Shown here: in pieces, positions 1 to 4,479 of the stretch
Layout: every line of letters begins with the position of its first letter
Numbering within the stretch: the stretch's first letter is position 1
Source: a virus
Lineage: Duplodnaviria > Heunggongvirae > Uroviricota > Caudoviricetes
Strand: one strand, 5' to 3'
IMG/VR virus record: IMGVR_UViG_3300022758_000366
DNA: 5,030 nt
The notes under the pieces: generated by a model
Databases searched by the model: none
Seen by the model: the letters and a program-made list of their open reading frames with translations, nothing else
Told to the model about the DNA's origin: nothing
Made by a program: the position numbers and the translations under genes

Positions 1-1848
1 CACATGCCGGGACCATTACCGTCTATGAAGGTTCCAGACCAGGTACGCTGAATGATTTTCTCGGTGCCATGACGGAGGATGAGCCCGTCCGGAGGCACTG
101 CGCCGTTTTGAGCTGATGGTGAATGAAGTGGCACGTCATGCCGGAGCGTCATCACAGAGCGCAGCGGCGGCAAAGAAATCCGAAACTGCAGCGGCATCAT
201 CGAAGAACGCGGCGAAAACCTCAGAAACGAATGCAGCTAATAGTGCACAGGCGGCAGCGACCTCACAGACTGCATCAGAAAACTCCGCGACAGCAGCCAA
301 AAATCAGAAACCAACGCGAAAAATAGCGAGACAGCCGCAAAGACGAGCGAAACCAACGCAAAGTCCAGCCAGACGGCAGCGAAAACCAGCGAAACGAATG
401 CCAAAGACAGTGAAGCCACGCAAAAGGTGAGCGAAACAGCGGCTGCGAACTCAGCGAAAGCATCGGCAGCAAGCCAGACGGCAGCTAAAGCAAGCGAAGA
501 TGCAGCCAGAGAGTACGCAAGCCAGGCTGCGGAGCCGTATAAATATGTCTTACAGCCGCTGCCTGATGTGTGGATACCATTTAACGATTCGCTGGATATG
601 ATTACGGGCTTTTCGCCGTCATATAAAAAGATTGTTATTGGTGATGATGAAATAACGATGCCTGGCGACAAGGTTGTTAAGTTTAAACGCGCATCGAAAG
701 CAACCTATATTAATAAATCTGGTGTGCTGACAGTGGCTGCCATTGACGAGCCACGGTTTGAACGTGATGGCCTGCTTATTGAGGGGCAAAGAACGAACTA
801 CATGCTCAATTCGGAAAGCCCTGCCAGTTGGGGGCGATCGTCAAATATGGATGTTCCCGAAACCGGGACGGATAGTTTTGGTTTTACCTATGGAAAGTTT
901 GTCTGTAACGATTCTCTGATTGGGCAAACCTCAGCCATTAATATGGCATCAATTGCTGCAACAAAGTCAGTTGATGTCTCAGGCGATAATAAATACGTGA
1001 CAACCTCATGTCGTTTTAAAACAGAACTGCAGGTAAGGTTGCGTATCCGATTTGATAAATATGACGGTAGCGCAACAACTTTTCTTGGTGATGTGTATAT
1101 TGATACACAAACGCTTGAAATTAATATGACAGGCGGCGCTGCCTCAAGGATTACAGCGAGAGTCAGAAAGGACGAAGTTATCGGATGGATTTTTGCAGAG
1201 GCAACAATTCAGGCAATTGATGGGGAGTTAAAAATAGGTTCTCAGATACAGTATTCTCCTAAGCAGGGCGGGGCAACCGTATCTGGTGACTATATTTATC
1301 TGGCCACCCCACAAGTAGAAAATGGGCCTTGTGTATCATCTTTTATTATATCAGGAACGACGGCGGCGACCCGCGCAAGCGATATAGTCACAGTTCCCAT
1401 TAAGAATAATCTTTATAATCTTCCTTTTACGGTTCTTTGTGAGGTACATAAGAACTGGTATAAAACGCCAATGCAGCACCGCGTGTTTTTGATACCGGCG
1501 GTCATCAAACCGGAGCGGCTATTATTCTTGGCTTCGGTTCTTCAGCAGATTACGACGGATTTCCTTATTGCGATATTGGTGGGTCTAACAGACGGATAAA
1601 CGAAAATGCATCACTTGAAAAAAATGGTTATGGGGATGCGTGTAAAGTCTGATCAGTCTACATGCGCAGTAAGTAACGGGCGTATATCCAGCGAAACAAA
1701 AACCACATGGTCCTGTATTCAGAACACCGCAATTATCCGTATTGGAGGCCAGACTACAGCCGGGTTACGTCATTTATTTGGTCATGTAAGGAATTTCAGA
1801 ATATGGCACAAGGCATTGACTGATGCTCAGGTGGGGGAGTCAATCTAA
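1..1848 (+). CDS. stf: Side tail fibre protein (lambda Stf-like N-proximal part, Ala/Ser/Thr repeat, LamG-like distal domain); 5' end outside window; reading frame broken as sequenced
   Basis: Frame 3 at 3..113 gives HAGTITVYEGSRPGTLNDFLGAMTEDEP. Frame 2 from 83 gives ARPEALRRFELMVNEVARHAGASSQSAAAAKKSETAAASSKNAAKTSETNAA. Both peptides match my recollection of lambda Stf (HAGTITVYEDSQPGTLNDFLCAMTEDDARPEVLRRLELMVEEVAR). Frame 1 from 299 continues KSETNAKNSETAAKTSETNAK to the stop at 1597-1599. A frame-3 stretch 1482..1649 (DTGGHQTGAAIILGFGSSADYDGFPYCDIGG) and frame 1 at 1651..1848 (ending GLRHLFGHVRNFRIWHKALTDAQVGESI) look like one concanavalin/LamG-type domain. The listed ORFs 116..430, 427..1599 and 1606..1848 are pieces of this one gene; the 'M' at 427 is an internal GTG. 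Confidence 0.85.
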
Positions 1849-2156
1849 TGAAAGATTTAACACTCAAATTTCCCGACAGGGCCGACTTTTCGGCCTTTAT
1901 GGAGAGCATTGGCTATTATGATGACGAGTTGATGCAGGATGATATTCTTATTGACGTGATAGGTAACGTGTACAAAGAAACCGGAGAACTGACTGAAGAT
2001 GGCGAACCGGTATGTGTTAAGGAAGACGGATATTTTGTAAACGTGCGCATCATTATGATGCAAAAAAATCGTCAATATTCGATAAATACGCGGTTGTTGT
2101 TGAGCATCAACTTCGTGGCTGGATGTGAGGGAGACAAATGGCTACATCGACAGTAA
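1848..2156 (+). CDS. Hypothetical small acidic protein (102 aa) in the tail-fibre operon
   Basis: The ATG at 1848 overlaps the stf stop as TAATG (translational coupling). The ORF is rich in Asp/Glu and sits between two fibre genes. Its 3' end overlaps the next ORF by 19 nt in another frame. No family recognised. Confidence 0.45.
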   Translation: MKDLTLKFPDRADFSAFMESIGYYDDELMQDDILIDVIGNVYKETGELTEDGEPVCVKEDGYFVNVRIIMMQKNRQYSINTRLLLSINFVAGCEGDKWLHRQ

Positions 2157-2842
2157 TTCCAGGAGATATCACCACGCTAAAGGGAGATGTCAGTAAAACT
2201 AAGGAAGAGATTTCCTCAATTAACGGAAAAGTATCAACGCTTCAGACTGATATGACCAGTGCAAAGCAGGATATCAGCACCAGATACACAAAAACTGAAG
2301 TTGATAATAAGCTGAAAAACAAAGTGGAAGTGAACGATCTGGAAAGTGGTCGTTATGGCGGAGATTTTTATCCACTGACAGGTCGTGAAGCGTTTTATTT
2401 ATGGAATTTGGCCACGACTACAGCGGCGGCAAACCTTTATCTTAATCCTGACCCCGCAATTTCGTCTGTACTGCGGTCAACATCATCTATCCGCTATAAA
2501 CATTCAGTAGAGACAATAGATTCAGAGCACGCCGATCTCATTTTCAGGATGCGCCCTGTGTGGTACAGGTCGCAATGCGAAAATGACAGGCGTGACTGGG
2601 GATTCTATGGATTGATTGCCGAGGAAGTTGGAGAAATTGCCCCTCAGTTTGTTCACTGGCGACCAGCCAACGAAGATGATGCACCGGAAACCATTTCCAG
2701 CAATGGCCTTGTTGCCGAAGGTGTAATGTACGAACGTCTGGTTGTTCCACTGATTCACCATATCCAGAAACTGACTGAAAGAGTTGATGAACTTGAGTCA
2801 GAGTTAAAGTTGTTATCCGTTTCCCGAAGCGATATCGGATAA
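2138..2842 (+). CDS. Tail fibre/spike-type protein with C-terminal intramolecular chaperone auto-processing (peptidase S74-like) domain
   Basis: GAGGGAG lies about 5 nt upstream of the ATG at 2138, and a frame-2 stop sits at 2126-2128 just before it. The N-terminal half is heptad-like (DITTLKGDVSKTKEEISSINGKVSTLQTD). The C-terminal region SSIRYKHSVETIDSEHADLIFRMRPVWYRS...WGFYGLIAEEVGEIAPQFV...GVMYERLVVPLIHHIQKLTERVDELESELKLL follows the consensus of the endosialidase/T5 LtfA chaperone domain (S-x-x-R-x-K ... GxIAQEV..P ... Y..LvPLl..iqeL...LE). Confidence 0.8.
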   Translation: MATSTVIPGDITTLKGDVSKTKEEISSINGKVSTLQTDMTSAKQDISTRYTKTEVDNKLKNKVEVNDLESGRYGGDFYPLTGREAFYLWNLATTTAAANLYLNPDPAISSVLRSTSSIRYKHSVETIDSEHADLIFRMRPVWYRSQCENDRRDWGFYGLIAEEVGEIAPQFVHWRPANEDDAPETISSNGLVAEGVMYERLVVPLIHHIQKLTERVDELESELKLLSVSRSDIG

Positions 2843-2852
2843 AGGAGGAGTA

Positions 2853-3140
2853 ATGGATATAACACCTTTTCTTCATGCGCTTTGTGCTGTGGCTGCGCAG
2901 GTACTGATTGGCCTTTTTACCGGAAACTGGGCTTACGGTGCGATAGCCGGTTGTACGTTCTTCATTGCGCGTGAACACACCCAGGCAGAATATCGCTGGA
3001 TTGAAATGTTTGGGCATGGCAAGAGGATTAACATGCCGTGGTGGGGCGGTTTTGATCCGCGCGTGTGGGATGTGGCAAGCCTGATGGATTTTGCTGTGCC
3101 GGTGGTGGCGTGTCTGCTGATCTGGATGTTGATCCGTTAA
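2853..3140 (+). CDS. Small integral membrane protein (95 aa, about three hydrophobic helices); moron-position gene, possible superinfection-exclusion or lysogenic-conversion function
   Basis: A strong Shine-Dalgarno AGGAGGAG at 2843-2850 precedes the ATG at 2853. Hydrophobic segments are FLHALCAVAAQVLIGLF, WAYGAIAGCTFFIA and VASLMDFAVPVVACLLIWMLI. It lies between the tail-fibre genes and the att site and is followed by a hairpin. No lipobox. Confidence 0.6.
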   Translation: MDITPFLHALCAVAAQVLIGLFTGNWAYGAIAGCTFFIAREHTQAEYRWIEMFGHGKRINMPWWGGFDPRVWDVASLMDFAVPVVACLLIWMLIR

Positions 3141-3155
3141 ATATAAAAAGTAAAA

Positions 3156-3191
3156 AGCCGCAGTAACTTGTCATGATAGGATACTGCGGCT
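3156..3191 (+). terminator. Stem-loop downstream of the membrane-protein gene (possible intrinsic terminator)
   Basis: AGCCGCAGTA (3156-3165) pairs with TACTGCGGCT (3182-3191), a 10-bp stem around a 16-nt loop, 16 nt after the stop at 3138-3140. The following sequence GGTTAACTTTCG is only weakly T-rich. Confidence 0.3.
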
Positions 3192-3485
3192 GGTTAACTT
3201 TCGATAGTGCGAGTATTGAATGATTTCCAGCCGTTACCGATTTTATATAACTGCAGTGGAATTATTCAACACACAGGCAAAACGGAATAAGCTGAGAAAA
3301 AAAGCGTGCTTACCCAATCTGGGGTAAATCACGTCTGAATGACACCTGAAAACAGGTGGTGGCCTCAAGAAGGCTTGGAATATTCTTCTTTAATGTTATG
3401 TAATTTATTGATTTTTCGTGTACGATTTTAAGACATTTATTCCAAGAAAAGTTTTTAACTCTTTGATTTTTCGACTCTGTATCAT

Positions 3486-3547
3486 CGGTCTCGAAAACCG
3501 GAGTGGGGGCAACTCCACCGGGGGTTCAAATCCCCCTCTCTCCGCCA
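3486..3547 (+). other. 3' portion of a tRNA-Ser(CGA) gene (anticodon stem-loop to CCA); not a complete tRNA; att core
   Basis: CGGT-CTCGAAA-ACCGG gives an anticodon loop with anticodon CGA. A long class-II variable arm AGTGGGGGCAACTCCAC follows, then T arm GGGGG-TTCAAAT-CCCCC, acceptor 3' strand TCTCTCC, discriminator G and CCA. Nearly identical to my recollection of E. coli serU from the anticodon stem onward. The upstream sequence TTTTTCGACTCTGTATCAT cannot form the acceptor 5' strand or D arm. Confidence 0.8.
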
Positions 3548-3592
3548 AAATTCAATCACTTACACATCATTAAGTCAGTGACAAAAATCACA

Positions 3593-3628
3593 CTTGGAAT
3601 TACTTGGAATATTTTCTTGGAATATTTT
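3593..3628 (+). repeat. Three tandem direct repeats CTTGGAAT(T/A)TT(TT): putative integrase arm-type binding sites (P' arm)
   Basis: Units at 3593-3602, 3603-3615 and 3616-3628. The same 11-mer recurs at 3374-3384 and inverted at 3435-3446. The repeats overlap the last codons and stop of the int fragment. Confidence 0.55.
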
Positions 3629-3945
3629 CAGGTAACGGGACATCAAGTGTTGGTGAAACTTTAACCTTCCTGTCATAGATTAGCACTTGCCCTTCGGTTT
3701 TGTGACCAGAGAAAAGTTGCTTATCCCGGCTGCTTCCTTCATAGTCTGAAATTCCTTTCGCCTTCAGATCATGAAAGGTGAAGTCGGTTAAAATACCTGA
3801 AATTTTTCCAGCACGATTTCTTGCTTCTACCCACATTTCGTTAAAGCCTTTGTACATATATCGGTTGCCGTATTGATTGCTGATCACATAGGCAGATTTT
3901 GGTAACTGTTTTGCTTTTCGATCGCTGCCTGTAATCGTGGACTCC
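3600..3945 (-). pseudogene. int: Tyrosine integrase (lambda Int family), C-terminal fragment only; N-terminal and core-binding domains absent
   Basis: The C-terminal ~100 residues of the 3600..4199 ORF (AYVISNQYGNRYMYKGFNEMWVEARNRAGKISGILTDFTFHDLKAKGISDYEGSSRDKQLFSGHKTEGQVLIYDRK) align by eye with the lambda Int C-terminus (TFHELRSLSARLYEKQISDKFAQHLLGHKSDTMASQYRDDR), including the His, the GHK His and the Tyr nucleophile. The Arg of H-x-L-R is Lys here. Nothing upstream resembles the first catalytic Arg/Lys region. The 3' end abuts the att site. The boundary at ~3945 is approximate. Confidence 0.7.
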
Positions 3946-4407
3946 ATGCTTTTATCTGTATCTTTATCTGTCGTGACTCGTCGTGACATGTGCGTGACAT
4001 TTCGTGACGCGCCGTGACAATCGCCATTTTGTTCCCGCTTTCTTTCCCTCTCTCGCTGCGCCCTCTTGCGCTCTGCAGGAGATTTTGCGGTTTGCGAAAT
4101 ATTGCCGTTGTCCTCTTTAAGCACCTGGCGTTTTTCCCATCCAGTGATTAAATCACCATCAAGTACCCGCCCCTGCATCGTCTGCAAAATTTGAATCAAT
4201 TACCTCTTCTGTCACGTCGAGCGCACTTGCCAAATCTTCTGTCGTGACATCAATGTGACCTCGCGTGACATTTCGTGACGCGCTCACCAGGAGGTGGATA
4301 TACACTGCCATCACTGTTGCAATTGGCTGCCCTGACACCCTGGCAATTGTTCGCCACTTAGGGTCATTTGGCATGTCATGCCATAATCTGAGCCAGGCGT
4401 TAGCCAT
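3946..4407 (-). CDS. Putative phage replication initiator (YdaU/DUF1376-like N-terminus, from memory), frameshifted and continuous with the int fragment
   Basis: ATG at 4407 with SD GAGGTGAG. The N-terminus MANAWLRLWHDMPNDPKWRTIARVSGQPIATVMAVYIHLL resembles the W..Y....DPK N-terminal motif I recall for DUF1376/YdaU-like initiators. A frame change lies near 4160-4200, after which the sequence continues as QGRVLDGDLITGWEKRQ...ERKRAQRERERK. Iteron-like repeats are embedded in the coding sequence. Sits immediately downstream of a YdaT-like gene, as in the Rac ydaS-ydaT-ydaU-ydaV module. The 3' boundary is approximate. Confidence 0.45.
3972..4279. repeat. Iteron-like CGTGAC direct repeats with ~10-11 bp phasing (putative replication origin inside the initiator gene)
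   Basis: CGTGAC starts at 3972, 3982, 3993, 4003 and 4013, then at 4243, 4254 (TGTGAC), 4264 and 4274, with an inverted GTCACG at 4211-4216. An identical 21-mer GCGTGACATTTCGTGACGCGC occurs at 3992-4012 and 4263-4283. An AT-rich block with TATCTG repeats lies at 3948-3970. Confidence 0.55.
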
Positions 4408-4479
4408 ACTCACCTCTTCTGATACCGAATCTTTTTTACTCACGAGTTGCCGGAAGCGATTCGATATGGCTATTATCAC

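What the first reader, a model, noticed from the sequence alone, without database searches (positions are those of the whole stretch)
3374..3628. Complete lambda-type attP architecture built on a tRNA-Ser core
Five copies of CTTGGAATATT-like arm-type sequence (one direct and one inverted to the left, three tandem to the right) and two IHF-consensus matches bracket the tRNA-Ser 3' fragment. Spacing is like lambda P1/H1/P2/H2/core/P'1-3. This defines the integration specificity (a serU-type tRNA-Ser(CGA) gene) and the likely Int arm-binding motif of this element.
Basis: partly seen in the sequence, partly recalled or inferred. Interest (0 to 1): 0.6.

Follow-up and report, generated by a model that had tools for sequence, protein, structure and literature searches.

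The report
Orphaned phage attachment site at serU
This is a genuine lambda-style phage attachment site (attP) aimed at the serU tRNA-Ser gene. Its integrase-binding repeats are confirmed by comparison with related phages, but it is an ordinary kind of element and the integrase gene beside it is dead.

Summary
CTTGGAATA (up to 1 mismatch) occurs five times in the 5030-nt window, all within 3374-3624, against 1.27 expected. The five copies surround the last 62 nt of tRNA-Ser(CGA), at 3486-3547.

The interpretation also holds. The cognate full-length integrase aligns with lambda Int from residue 1, including the arm-binding N-terminus. Four diverged E. coli versions of the left arm keep the motif while the sequence around it drifts.

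Citrobacter phage Chris1 and Klebsiella phage KpF5 have the same five-site layout at the same offsets, within 1 nt. Their motifs differ: TTGGTATA and TGAGAAAA. The integrase N-domain varies with the motif class.

IHF-like sites sit at fixed offsets: two exact matches, both in the left arm, plus a one-mismatch site on the right.

Caveats:
- The adjacent int is only a frameshifted C-terminal remnant, fused to a replisome-organizer gene.
- The site is most likely the junction between two prophages inserted in tandem at serU, as in E. coli M15. It is probably not the working attP of a free phage.
- The right-arm sites lie at +100 to +131 from the crossover. To my recollection that is roughly 50 bp further out than in lambda.

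Verdict: a well-supported new member of a known kind, of low to moderate interest.

The parts
3374..3384 (+). P1 arm-type site, CTTGGAATATT. It lies at -119 to -109 from the anticodon-loop centre (3493).
   Evidence: gCTTGGAATATTCt is conserved in four diverged E. coli left-arm variants. The same offset holds GTTGGTATA in Chris1 and ATGAGAAAA in KpF5.
3401..3413 (-). H1, an exact IHF consensus (AATCAATAAATTA) at -92 to -80.
   Evidence: An IHF-like site with 0-1 mismatch sits at -92 or -91 in the O157 attR, L055, L070, Chris1 and KpF5.
3438..3446 (-). P2 arm-type site, inverted CTTGGAATA, at -55 to -47.
   Evidence: The O157 attR has TTTGGAATA at the same offset. Chris1 has GCTGGTATA and KpF5 has CTGAGAAAA, both inverted, at -54 to -46.
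3456..3468 (-). H2, an exact IHF consensus (AATCAAAGAGTTA) at -37 to -25.
   Evidence: The position is conserved in all E. coli variants and, with 1 mismatch, in Chris1. It was not found within 1 mismatch in KpF5.
3486..3547 (+). Core: the 3' 62 nt of tRNA-Ser(CGA), i.e. serU. The anticodon stem-loop CGGT-CTCGAAA-ACCG occupies 3486-3500 and the anticodon CGA is at 3492-3494. The inferred crossover lies within 3486-3504. The phage-type compensatory pair is G3505 and C3516; the bacterial gene has A and T there.
   Evidence: ARAGORN calls tRNA-Ser cga in the attL loci. The O157 attL carries the phage G..C variant and its attR carries the bacterial A..T variant.
3550..3562 (+). Candidate H' IHF site, ATTCAATCACTTA (1 mismatch), at +57 to +69.
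   Evidence: ATTCAAnCACTTA sits at the same offset in Chris1 and KpF5. The bacterial flank has a perfect TATCAATGACTTA at +58, so shared ancestry of the tRNA-downstream sequence is an alternative explanation.
3593..3626 (+). Right-arm sites P'1 (3593-3601, CTTGGAATT), P'2 (3603-3613) and P'3 (3616-3626, CTTGGAATATT). They lie at +100, +110 and +123, and they overlap the last codons and the stop codon of int.
   Evidence: The offsets are identical within 1 nt in Chris1, KpF5 and ST101phi6.3, each with its own motif. Int relatives from other genera show 2-3 tandem repeats at +46/+56/+69 after the tRNA end.
3600..3960 (-). Remnant of the cognate tyrosine integrase, about residues 221-341, with a 1-bp deletion near 3915. 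The arm-binding and core-binding domains and the first catalytic Arg are missing.
   Evidence: (tblastn and blastn against the 689R5 int).
3951..3959 (.). Rearrangement junction. A 9-bp microhomology (TTTATCTGT) joins int to a phage replisome-organizer gene.
3309..3328 (-). Terminator-like hairpin followed by a U7 run, just beyond the left arm in the direction of int transcription. Assigning it to the system is tentative.
   Evidence: z = -4.3. It is conserved only in the window-type left-arm variant.

Best explanation
Window 3374-3626 is an attP-type (P-O-P') attachment site of a lambda-family heterobivalent tyrosine integrase that targets serU, the tRNA-Ser(CGA) gene.

**Inferred mechanism, by analogy with lambda.** The C-terminal domains of Int bind the inverted anticodon-stem half-sites (CGGT / ACCG). 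They exchange strands across the 7-nt anticodon loop CTCGAAA. The N-terminal domain binds the five CTTGGAATAtt arm sites: P1 direct at -119, P2 inverted at -55, and P'1-3 direct at +100, +110 and +123. IHF bends at H1 (-92), H2 (-37) and probably H' (+57) bring the arms to the core.

**Consequence of integration.** Integration replaces the 3' 58 or so nt of serU with the phage copy. That copy carries a compensatory G-C pair in the variable arm, so the tRNA stays intact.

**Status in this window.** The site is an orphan. The neighbouring int is a truncated, frameshifted remnant fused to a replisome-organizer gene. The left side is the intact right end (tail fibres plus left arm) of another lambdoid prophage. 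The most likely origin is the internal junction of two prophages inserted in tandem at serU, with the second one later degraded.

**Shown versus inferred.** Shown: the sequence anatomy, the attL and attR products in genomes, the covariation, and the Int homology. Inferred: protein binding, the exact cleavage points, the IHF requirement, and the tandem context of this particular window.
For: **Motif clustering.** There are 5 hits, all within 251 nt, against 1.27 expected in the whole window. Every exact copy in 113 kb of related DNA lies at a serU att site.

**Integration products.** In O157:H7, the prophage carrying espJ and tccP has serU, the right arm (100% identical to the window) and int at one end. 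At the other end it has a diverged left arm, the core and the host flank. That left arm still keeps both motif copies at -120 and -55.

**Crossover position.** attL has the phage G..C variant and attR has the bacterial A..T variant. This places the crossover 5' of position 3505.

**Covariation.** Chris1 has TTGGTATA and KpF5 has TGAGAAAA at all five positions, at the same offsets within 1 nt. Further genera carry other motifs at +46/+56/+69 after the tRNA end.

**Int N-domain follows the motif class.** Within the TGAGAAA group the N-domains are 68-92% identical. They are only 28-35% identical to the E. coli N-domain, although the rest of the protein is 60-65% identical.

**Int homology.** Int aligns with lambda Int from residue 1 and matches Pfam Phage_integrase, Phage_int_M and SAM-like domains.

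**IHF-like sites.** They sit at conserved offsets.

**Tandem context.** E. coli M15 has mtfA, serU, int, a prophage, tail fibre genes, this same junction (99.5% identical), int, and a second prophage.

**Dead int.**
Against: - No binding or recombination data exist for this Int; the literature search for serU with arm-type found nothing.
- The source genome was not found, so the tandem context of this window is an analogy and has not been observed.
- H' has a mismatch, and it resembles the host tRNA-downstream flank, so it may reflect shared ancestry rather than an IHF site.
- KpF5 lacks a recognisable H2 within 1 mismatch.
- The right-arm sites overlap the int 3' end, so some constraint from coding cannot be fully excluded for E. 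coli alone. However, KpF5 int ends beyond its repeats.
Confidence: 0.8

Rival explanations
1. The site is the working attP of an intact, free or inducible phage whose own integrase lies next to it.
For: The window shows the vegetative gene order of tail fibres, att, int, as in lambda. Chris1, a circular phage genome, has exactly this layout.
Against: The int retains only about residues 221-341, has a 1-bp deletion, and is fused to an inverted replisome-organizer/YdaT/Cro block. The tail fibre reading frame is split into several ORFs. The same junction in E. coli M15 lies inside a chromosome between two prophages.
Confidence: 0.05
2. The site is a non-cognate hybrid junction. The left arm would belong to one integrase system and the right arm to another, so the five repeats would not form one functional set.
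For: The best phage matches to the two arms come from different records: mEp332 and ev099 for the left, 689R5 for the right. True hybrids exist: L057 and L063 join an unrelated, motif-free left arm to this right arm.
Against: Both arms carry the same motif. In the O157 prophage at serU examined here, this right arm and int are paired with a left arm that has the motif at the same offsets. L023 is identical to the window across the aligned 355-nt att region and has a full-length int beside it.
Confidence: 0.05
3. The repeats are real protein-binding sites, but for a different protein than the Int N-domain. Candidates are the neighbouring DUF4224 protein (a putative excisionase) or a host factor.
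For: No binding data exist. A DUF4224 gene always follows int in the E. coli prophages.
Against: The pattern of five sites on both arms with a tandem triplet on the right is the Int arm-site pattern (PMC4880445). Int has a lambda-like N-terminus. N-domain identity follows the motif class and not the overall Int phylogeny.
Confidence: 0.08
4. The repeats are a chance or low-complexity AT-rich feature, or a by-product of the int C-terminal coding sequence.
For: The region is AT-rich, and three copies overlap the last int codons.
Against: 1 of 200 shuffles reaches 5 hits in the whole window. Two copies are non-coding. The motif changes in concert at all five places in other phages. The repeats persist where int ends beyond them (KpF5).
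Confidence: 0.02

Closest known systems
Bacteriophage lambda attP / Int (heterobivalent tyrosine integrase; PMC4880445)
   Same: Int is homologous from residue 1, including the arm-binding N-terminus. There are five arm-type sites, two on the left arm and three in tandem on the right. IHF-type sites lie between the arms and the core. The whole site spans about 250 bp, and int is transcribed towards att.
   Different: - The core is a tRNA anticodon stem-loop, not the lambda attB core between gal and bio.
- The arm motif is CTTGGAATATT, unlike lambda's.
- The right-arm sites are at +100 to +131 because 54 nt of tRNA lie between the crossover and the arm.
- P2 is inverted and only 9 bp from H2, which leaves no room there for the Xis and Fis sites that lambda places between P2 and H2.
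O157:H7 prophage Sp14 / CP-933U (carries tccP and espJ; PMC2884950) and other serU prophages of STEC (PMC7067040)
   Same: The right arm and int are the same, 100% identical over 3486-3720. The integration site is also the same, serU next to mtfA.
   Different: The O157 left arm is a diverged variant: about 79% identical over the inner part of the left arm plus the core (window 3435-3562), with no detectable match further out. It keeps only the motif and the IHF-like sites. The O157 int is interrupted by IS1203. In the window, int is truncated by a rearrangement.
Anticodon-loop class of tRNA-gene integration sites (Williams 2002, Nucleic Acids Res 30:866; cited from memory)
   Same: [quoted passage not shown] The symmetric stem flanks a 7-nt loop. 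The phage supplies the replacement 3' part of the gene.
   Different: Nothing notable. The compensatory G-C/A-T difference in the variable arm conveniently marks the crossover side.
Citrobacter phage Chris1 and Klebsiella phage KpF5 attP sites
   Same: They share the serU core, the same five-site scaffold within 1 nt, and Ints that are 57-60% identical.
   Different: Their arm motifs are TTGGTATA and TGAGAAAA. The Int N-domains are only 48% and 35% identical to the E. coli one.

Membership tests
Lambda-type attP (heterobivalent tyrosine integrase system) | The integrase has a catalytic tyrosine-recombinase domain and a separate N-terminal arm-binding domain homologous to that of lambda Int. 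| tested here: met
   The full-length cognate Int (689R5) aligns with lambda Int over residues 1-313 and matches Pfam PF00589 and PF22022. The copy in the window itself is only a C-terminal remnant.
Lambda-type attP (heterobivalent tyrosine integrase system) | Multiple arm-type sites on both arms, with a sequence unrelated to the core. | tested here: met
   Five CTTGGAATA copies. They are conserved across diverged arms and covary as a set in Chris1 and KpF5.
Lambda-type attP (heterobivalent tyrosine integrase system) | Binding sites for bending proteins (IHF) between the arm sites and the core. | tested here: met
   Consensus matches lie at -92 and -37, plus a 1-mismatch site at +57, at conserved offsets in relatives. 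This is a sequence-level test only; binding was not tested.
Lambda-type attP (heterobivalent tyrosine integrase system) | Inverted core-type sites flanking a 6-8 bp overlap region where strands are exchanged. | tested here: inconclusive
   CGGT-CTCGAAA-ACCG has the right form, and the variant pattern places the crossover 5' of 3505. The cleavage positions cannot be determined with these tools.
Lambda-type attP (heterobivalent tyrosine integrase system) | Recombination with attB yields attL and attR with the expected arm distribution. | tested here: met
   O157 has serU, the right arm and int at one end, and the left arm, core and host flank at the other. About 50 IMG/VR loci are of the attL type.
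Lambda-type attP (heterobivalent tyrosine integrase system) | Int N-domain binding to the arm sites, and dependence of recombination on those sites. | not testable with these tools
   This needs EMSA or footprinting and recombination assays.
Anticodon-loop class of tRNA integration sites | attP shares with the tRNA gene a block running from the anticodon stem to the 3' end. | tested here: met
   Window 3486-3547 equals tRNA-Ser(CGA) positions from the anticodon stem to CCA.
Functional tRNA gene | A complete cloverleaf. | tested here: not met
   ARAGORN finds no tRNA. Rfam gives only sub-threshold partial matches. The 5' 28 or so nt are replaced by left-arm sequence.

The most novel reading that the evidence does not exclude
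The site may belong to an Enterobacterales-wide family of tRNA-targeting lambda-like integrases built on a fixed attP scaffold. The five arm sites and the IHF sites keep invariant offsets. The 8-9 nt arm code and the Int N-domain are swapped together as a module, independently of the catalytic domain and of the target tRNA (Ser-CGA, Ser-TGA, Leu, Cys). Different arm codes on one shared core (serU) could act as orthogonality labels. They would let several prophages stack in tandem at one tRNA gene without excising each other.
Probability: 0.35. Interest if true: 0.45.

Novelty: new member of a known kind. Interest (0 to 1): 0.25.

Why it matters
The result gives a precise, testable map of the attachment site used by a very common group of E. 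coli serU prophages. That group includes the O157:H7 prophage carrying tccP and espJ. The map covers the arm code, the bend sites and the crossover window.

It explains attP-like sequences found inside chromosomes as junctions of tandem prophages. The covarying arm codes on a fixed scaffold could serve as a natural set of orthogonal integrase/att pairs.

It does not reveal a new mechanism.

Tried and rejected
**Source of the window: not found.**
- No complete E. coli genome holds more than 71% of the window in one place.
- Exact searches for the int/replisome-organizer junction found nothing in the GTDB species genomes or in IMG/VR.
- Exact-protein look-ups of four versions of the fused or truncated ORFs found nothing.

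**Complete tRNA: rejected.** ARAGORN finds none, and Rfam gives only partial sub-threshold hits.

**Non-cognate hybrid of two att systems: considered and rejected.** The two arms best match different phage records. However, the motif is shared by both arms, and O157, L023 and M15 show the arms paired.

**Prior characterisation of the arm sites: none found.** Literature searches on serU with attP, and on serU with arm-type, returned nothing relevant.

**Xis-type sites.** I looked for them between P2 and H2 as in lambda. Only 9 bp lie there, so no assignment was made.

Full report
**Observation.**
The window contains exactly five matches to CTTGGAATA with up to one mismatch:
- 3374-3382 (+)
- 3438-3446 (-)
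- 3593-3601 (+, CTTGGAATT)
- 3603-3611 (+)
- 3616-3624 (+)

The expected number for the whole 5030 nt is 1.27, and only 1 of 200 shuffles reached five. The five copies flank 3486-3547. That stretch is the 3' 62 nt of tRNA-Ser(CGA) and is identical to the annotated tRNA-Ser-CGA next to mtfA in the 689R5 record. There is no complete tRNA in the window; Rfam gives only partial, sub-threshold matches.

The IHF consensus WATCAANNNNTTR matches exactly twice, at 3401-3413 and 3456-3468, both on the minus strand and both in the left arm. A one-mismatch site lies to the right at 3550-3562. The described features are therefore real. The one error is that the two exact IHF matches do not bracket the tRNA piece.

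**What surrounds it.**
The window is a mosaic of prophage DNA.
- Positions 1-3562 match the right end of lambdoid prophages in many E. coli genomes at about 95%. This part comprises tail fibre genes, a small ORF and the left arm.
- Positions 3486 to about 3960 match the right arm and the 3' third of an integrase gene at 98-100%.
- From 3951 onward the sequence is a replisome-organizer/YdaT/Cro block from a lambdoid replication region, on the minus strand.

The integrase here retains only about residues 221-341. It carries a 1-bp deletion near 3915 and is joined to the replisome-organizer gene at a 9-bp microhomology, TTTATCTGT. No complete E. coli genome, GTDB species genome or IMG/VR contig holds this junction. 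Exact look-ups of the fused ORFs also found nothing. The source therefore remains unknown.

**Integration products in other genomes.**
In O157:H7 strain PV15-279, the prophage carrying espJ and an EspF-repeat (TccP) gene is Sp14/CP-933U according to PMC2884950. It is bounded on one side by mtfA, a complete tRNA-Ser, the right arm and int. That side is 100% identical to window 3486-3720. On the other side it has a left arm, the 3' tRNA fragment and host flank towards yodB.

That left arm is largely different in sequence from the window's. It is about 79% identical over the inner part of the arm plus the core (window 3435-3562), with no detectable match further out. It still keeps gCTTGGAATATTCt at -120 and an inverted TTTGGAATA at -55, the same offsets as in the window.

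Two further diverged left-arm variants, joined to the same right arm, appear in IMG/VR contigs (L055/L081 and L070-72). They also keep both motif copies and both TTGATTTT IHF cores.

The attL copy carries the phage-type G3505/C3516 pair, whereas the attR copy carries the bacterial A/T pair. Strand exchange must therefore occur 5' of 3505. That places it within CGGTCTCGAAAACCGGAGT, the anticodon stem-loop.

**Covariation.**
Citrobacter phage Chris1 (a circular genome) and Klebsiella phage KpF5 have the same serU core and an Int 57-60% identical to the E. coli one. Their arms carry repeats at -119/-118, -54 (inverted), +100, +110/+111 and +123/+124. These are the window's offsets within 1 nt. 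The repeated word is TTGGTATA in Chris1 and TGAGAAAA in KpF5.

IHF-like sites with 0-1 mismatch recur at -92/-91, -37/-36 and +57.

A scan of GTDB species genomes with the three-Int alignment found 32 relatives in Enterobacterales. They sit next to tRNA-Ser(CGA), tRNA-Ser(TGA), tRNA-Leu or tRNA-Cys. Most of them show two or three tandem repeats about 46, 56 and 69 nt after the tRNA end, again with lineage-specific words.

The first 62 or so residues of Int cluster by motif class and not by overall relatedness. The TGAGAAA group is 68-92% identical internally in this domain. It is only 28-35% identical to the E. coli protein there, although the rest of the protein is 60-65% identical. This is the pattern expected if the N-domain reads the repeats.

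**The protein.**
The full-length cognate Int (341 aa) aligns with lambda Int over residues 1-313, starting MGRRR..LPPNvY as in lambda (PDB 1z1b, E = 1e-12). It has the Phage_integrase, Phage_int_M and SAM-like Pfam domains. Lambda Int is the paradigm heterobivalent recombinase with five arm-type sites and IHF sites H1, H2 and H' (PMC4880445).

**Context.**
Eleven complete E. coli genomes contain the contiguous left arm, core, right arm and int. I examined one, strain M15. Its order is mtfA, serU, int, a complete prophage, tail fibre genes, the junction (99.5% identical to the window), int, and a second prophage. This is a tandem double lysogen at serU.

An internal junction of that kind is sequence-identical to attP. 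Given the dead int and the split tail fibre frames, I think the window is the same kind of junction, with the downstream prophage later degraded. This step is inferred.

Hybrid junctions with an unrelated, motif-free left arm also exist (L057 and L063). That shows serU is shared by more than one integrase system. serU is a documented hot spot for prophages and islands (PMC7067040, PMC7545054).

**Mechanism.**
By analogy with lambda, the Int catalytic domains would bind the anticodon-stem half-sites and exchange strands across the 7-nt loop. The N-domains would bridge to P1 and the right-arm triplet for integration, and to P2 and right-arm sites for excision. IHF bends would bring the arms in. 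This is inferred, not shown.

Integration replaces the 3' part of serU with the phage copy, whose compensatory base pair keeps the variable arm paired.

The layout differs from lambda in three ways:
- The right-arm sites are about 50 bp further out because the tRNA 3' half intervenes. The lambda offsets used for this comparison are from my memory.
- P2 is inverted.
- P2 is only 9 bp from H2.

**Novelty.**
This is a standard attP of a known class. The element is common; 788 E. coli records have a best match of at least 99% identity. I found no paper describing its arm sites. I therefore file it as a new member of a known kind. The covarying arm code on a fixed scaffold is a tidy comparative result and could be useful for engineering, but it is not surprising.

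Noticed in passing
window 3600-4030: The integrase is a remnant covering about residues 221-341, with a 1-bp deletion near 3915. It is fused in the same orientation to the 5' part of a phage replisome-organizer gene at a 9-bp microhomology, TTTATCTGT (3951-3959). The Cro/YdaT/replisome block is inverted relative to its normal orientation with respect to int.
   Followed up: partly
window 3968-4020 and 4205-4285: Two clusters of CGTGAC(A) repeats (about 5 and about 4 copies) lie inside and just upstream of the replisome-organizer reading frame. They look like origin iterons of the lambda-O type (read).
   Followed up: no
L001 3001-3540 (phage mEp332); L003 and L004 (ev099, PhiR70_1): Three lambdoid phage genomes (records mEp332, ev099, PhiR70_1) carry an attR-type relic between their tail fibre genes and, in ev099, the annotated int. 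The relic consists of the window-type left arm, the bacterial-type serU core and about 280 bp of E. coli serU-downstream flank. An AraC-family regulator and IS2 fragments follow. This suggests a past aberrant excision from serU and later use of a different integrase.
   Followed up: partly
window 3309-3328, minus strand: A terminator-like hairpin followed by U7 lies just beyond the left arm in the direction of int transcription (fold z = -4.3). The position recalls lambda tI/sib. It is conserved only in the window-type left-arm variant.
   Followed up: partly
L055 / L081 (IMG/VR), right arm: These loci have four tandem CTTGGAATATT copies in place of three. The extra 15-bp unit falls where the window has the last int codons, so it may alter the Int C-terminus.
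   Followed up: no
L057 / L063 (IMG/VR): The same right arm and int are joined to an unrelated left arm that lacks the motif, and whose identity to the tRNA extends 4 nt further (GGAC). This is probably a tandem junction with a prophage that uses a different serU integrase.
   Followed up: no
L006 about 4430-4442 (O157 attR) and L090 (SerU-LTIIb attR), +58 to +70 from the anticodon loop: The bacterial flank just after serU contains a perfect IHF consensus, TATCAATGACTTA, at the same offset as the phage H' candidate. Either the host side contributes a bend site, or the phage right-arm start descends from a tRNA-downstream flank.
   Followed up: no
window 1-1850: The tail fibre reading frame is broken into several ORFs (116-430, 427-1599, 1606-1848), whereas related genomes annotate a tail fibre N-terminal-domain protein followed by a tail fibre domain protein. 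This suggests frameshifts and a decaying prophage.
   Followed up: no
L105-L116 (GTDB loci): Int relatives next to tRNA-Leu(TAA/CAA) and tRNA-Cys, including the glyW-cysT-leuZ-type cluster, keep 2-3 tandem right-arm repeats. In most tRNA-Leu(TAA) loci a terminator-like hairpin lies between the tRNA and the repeats.
   Followed up: no
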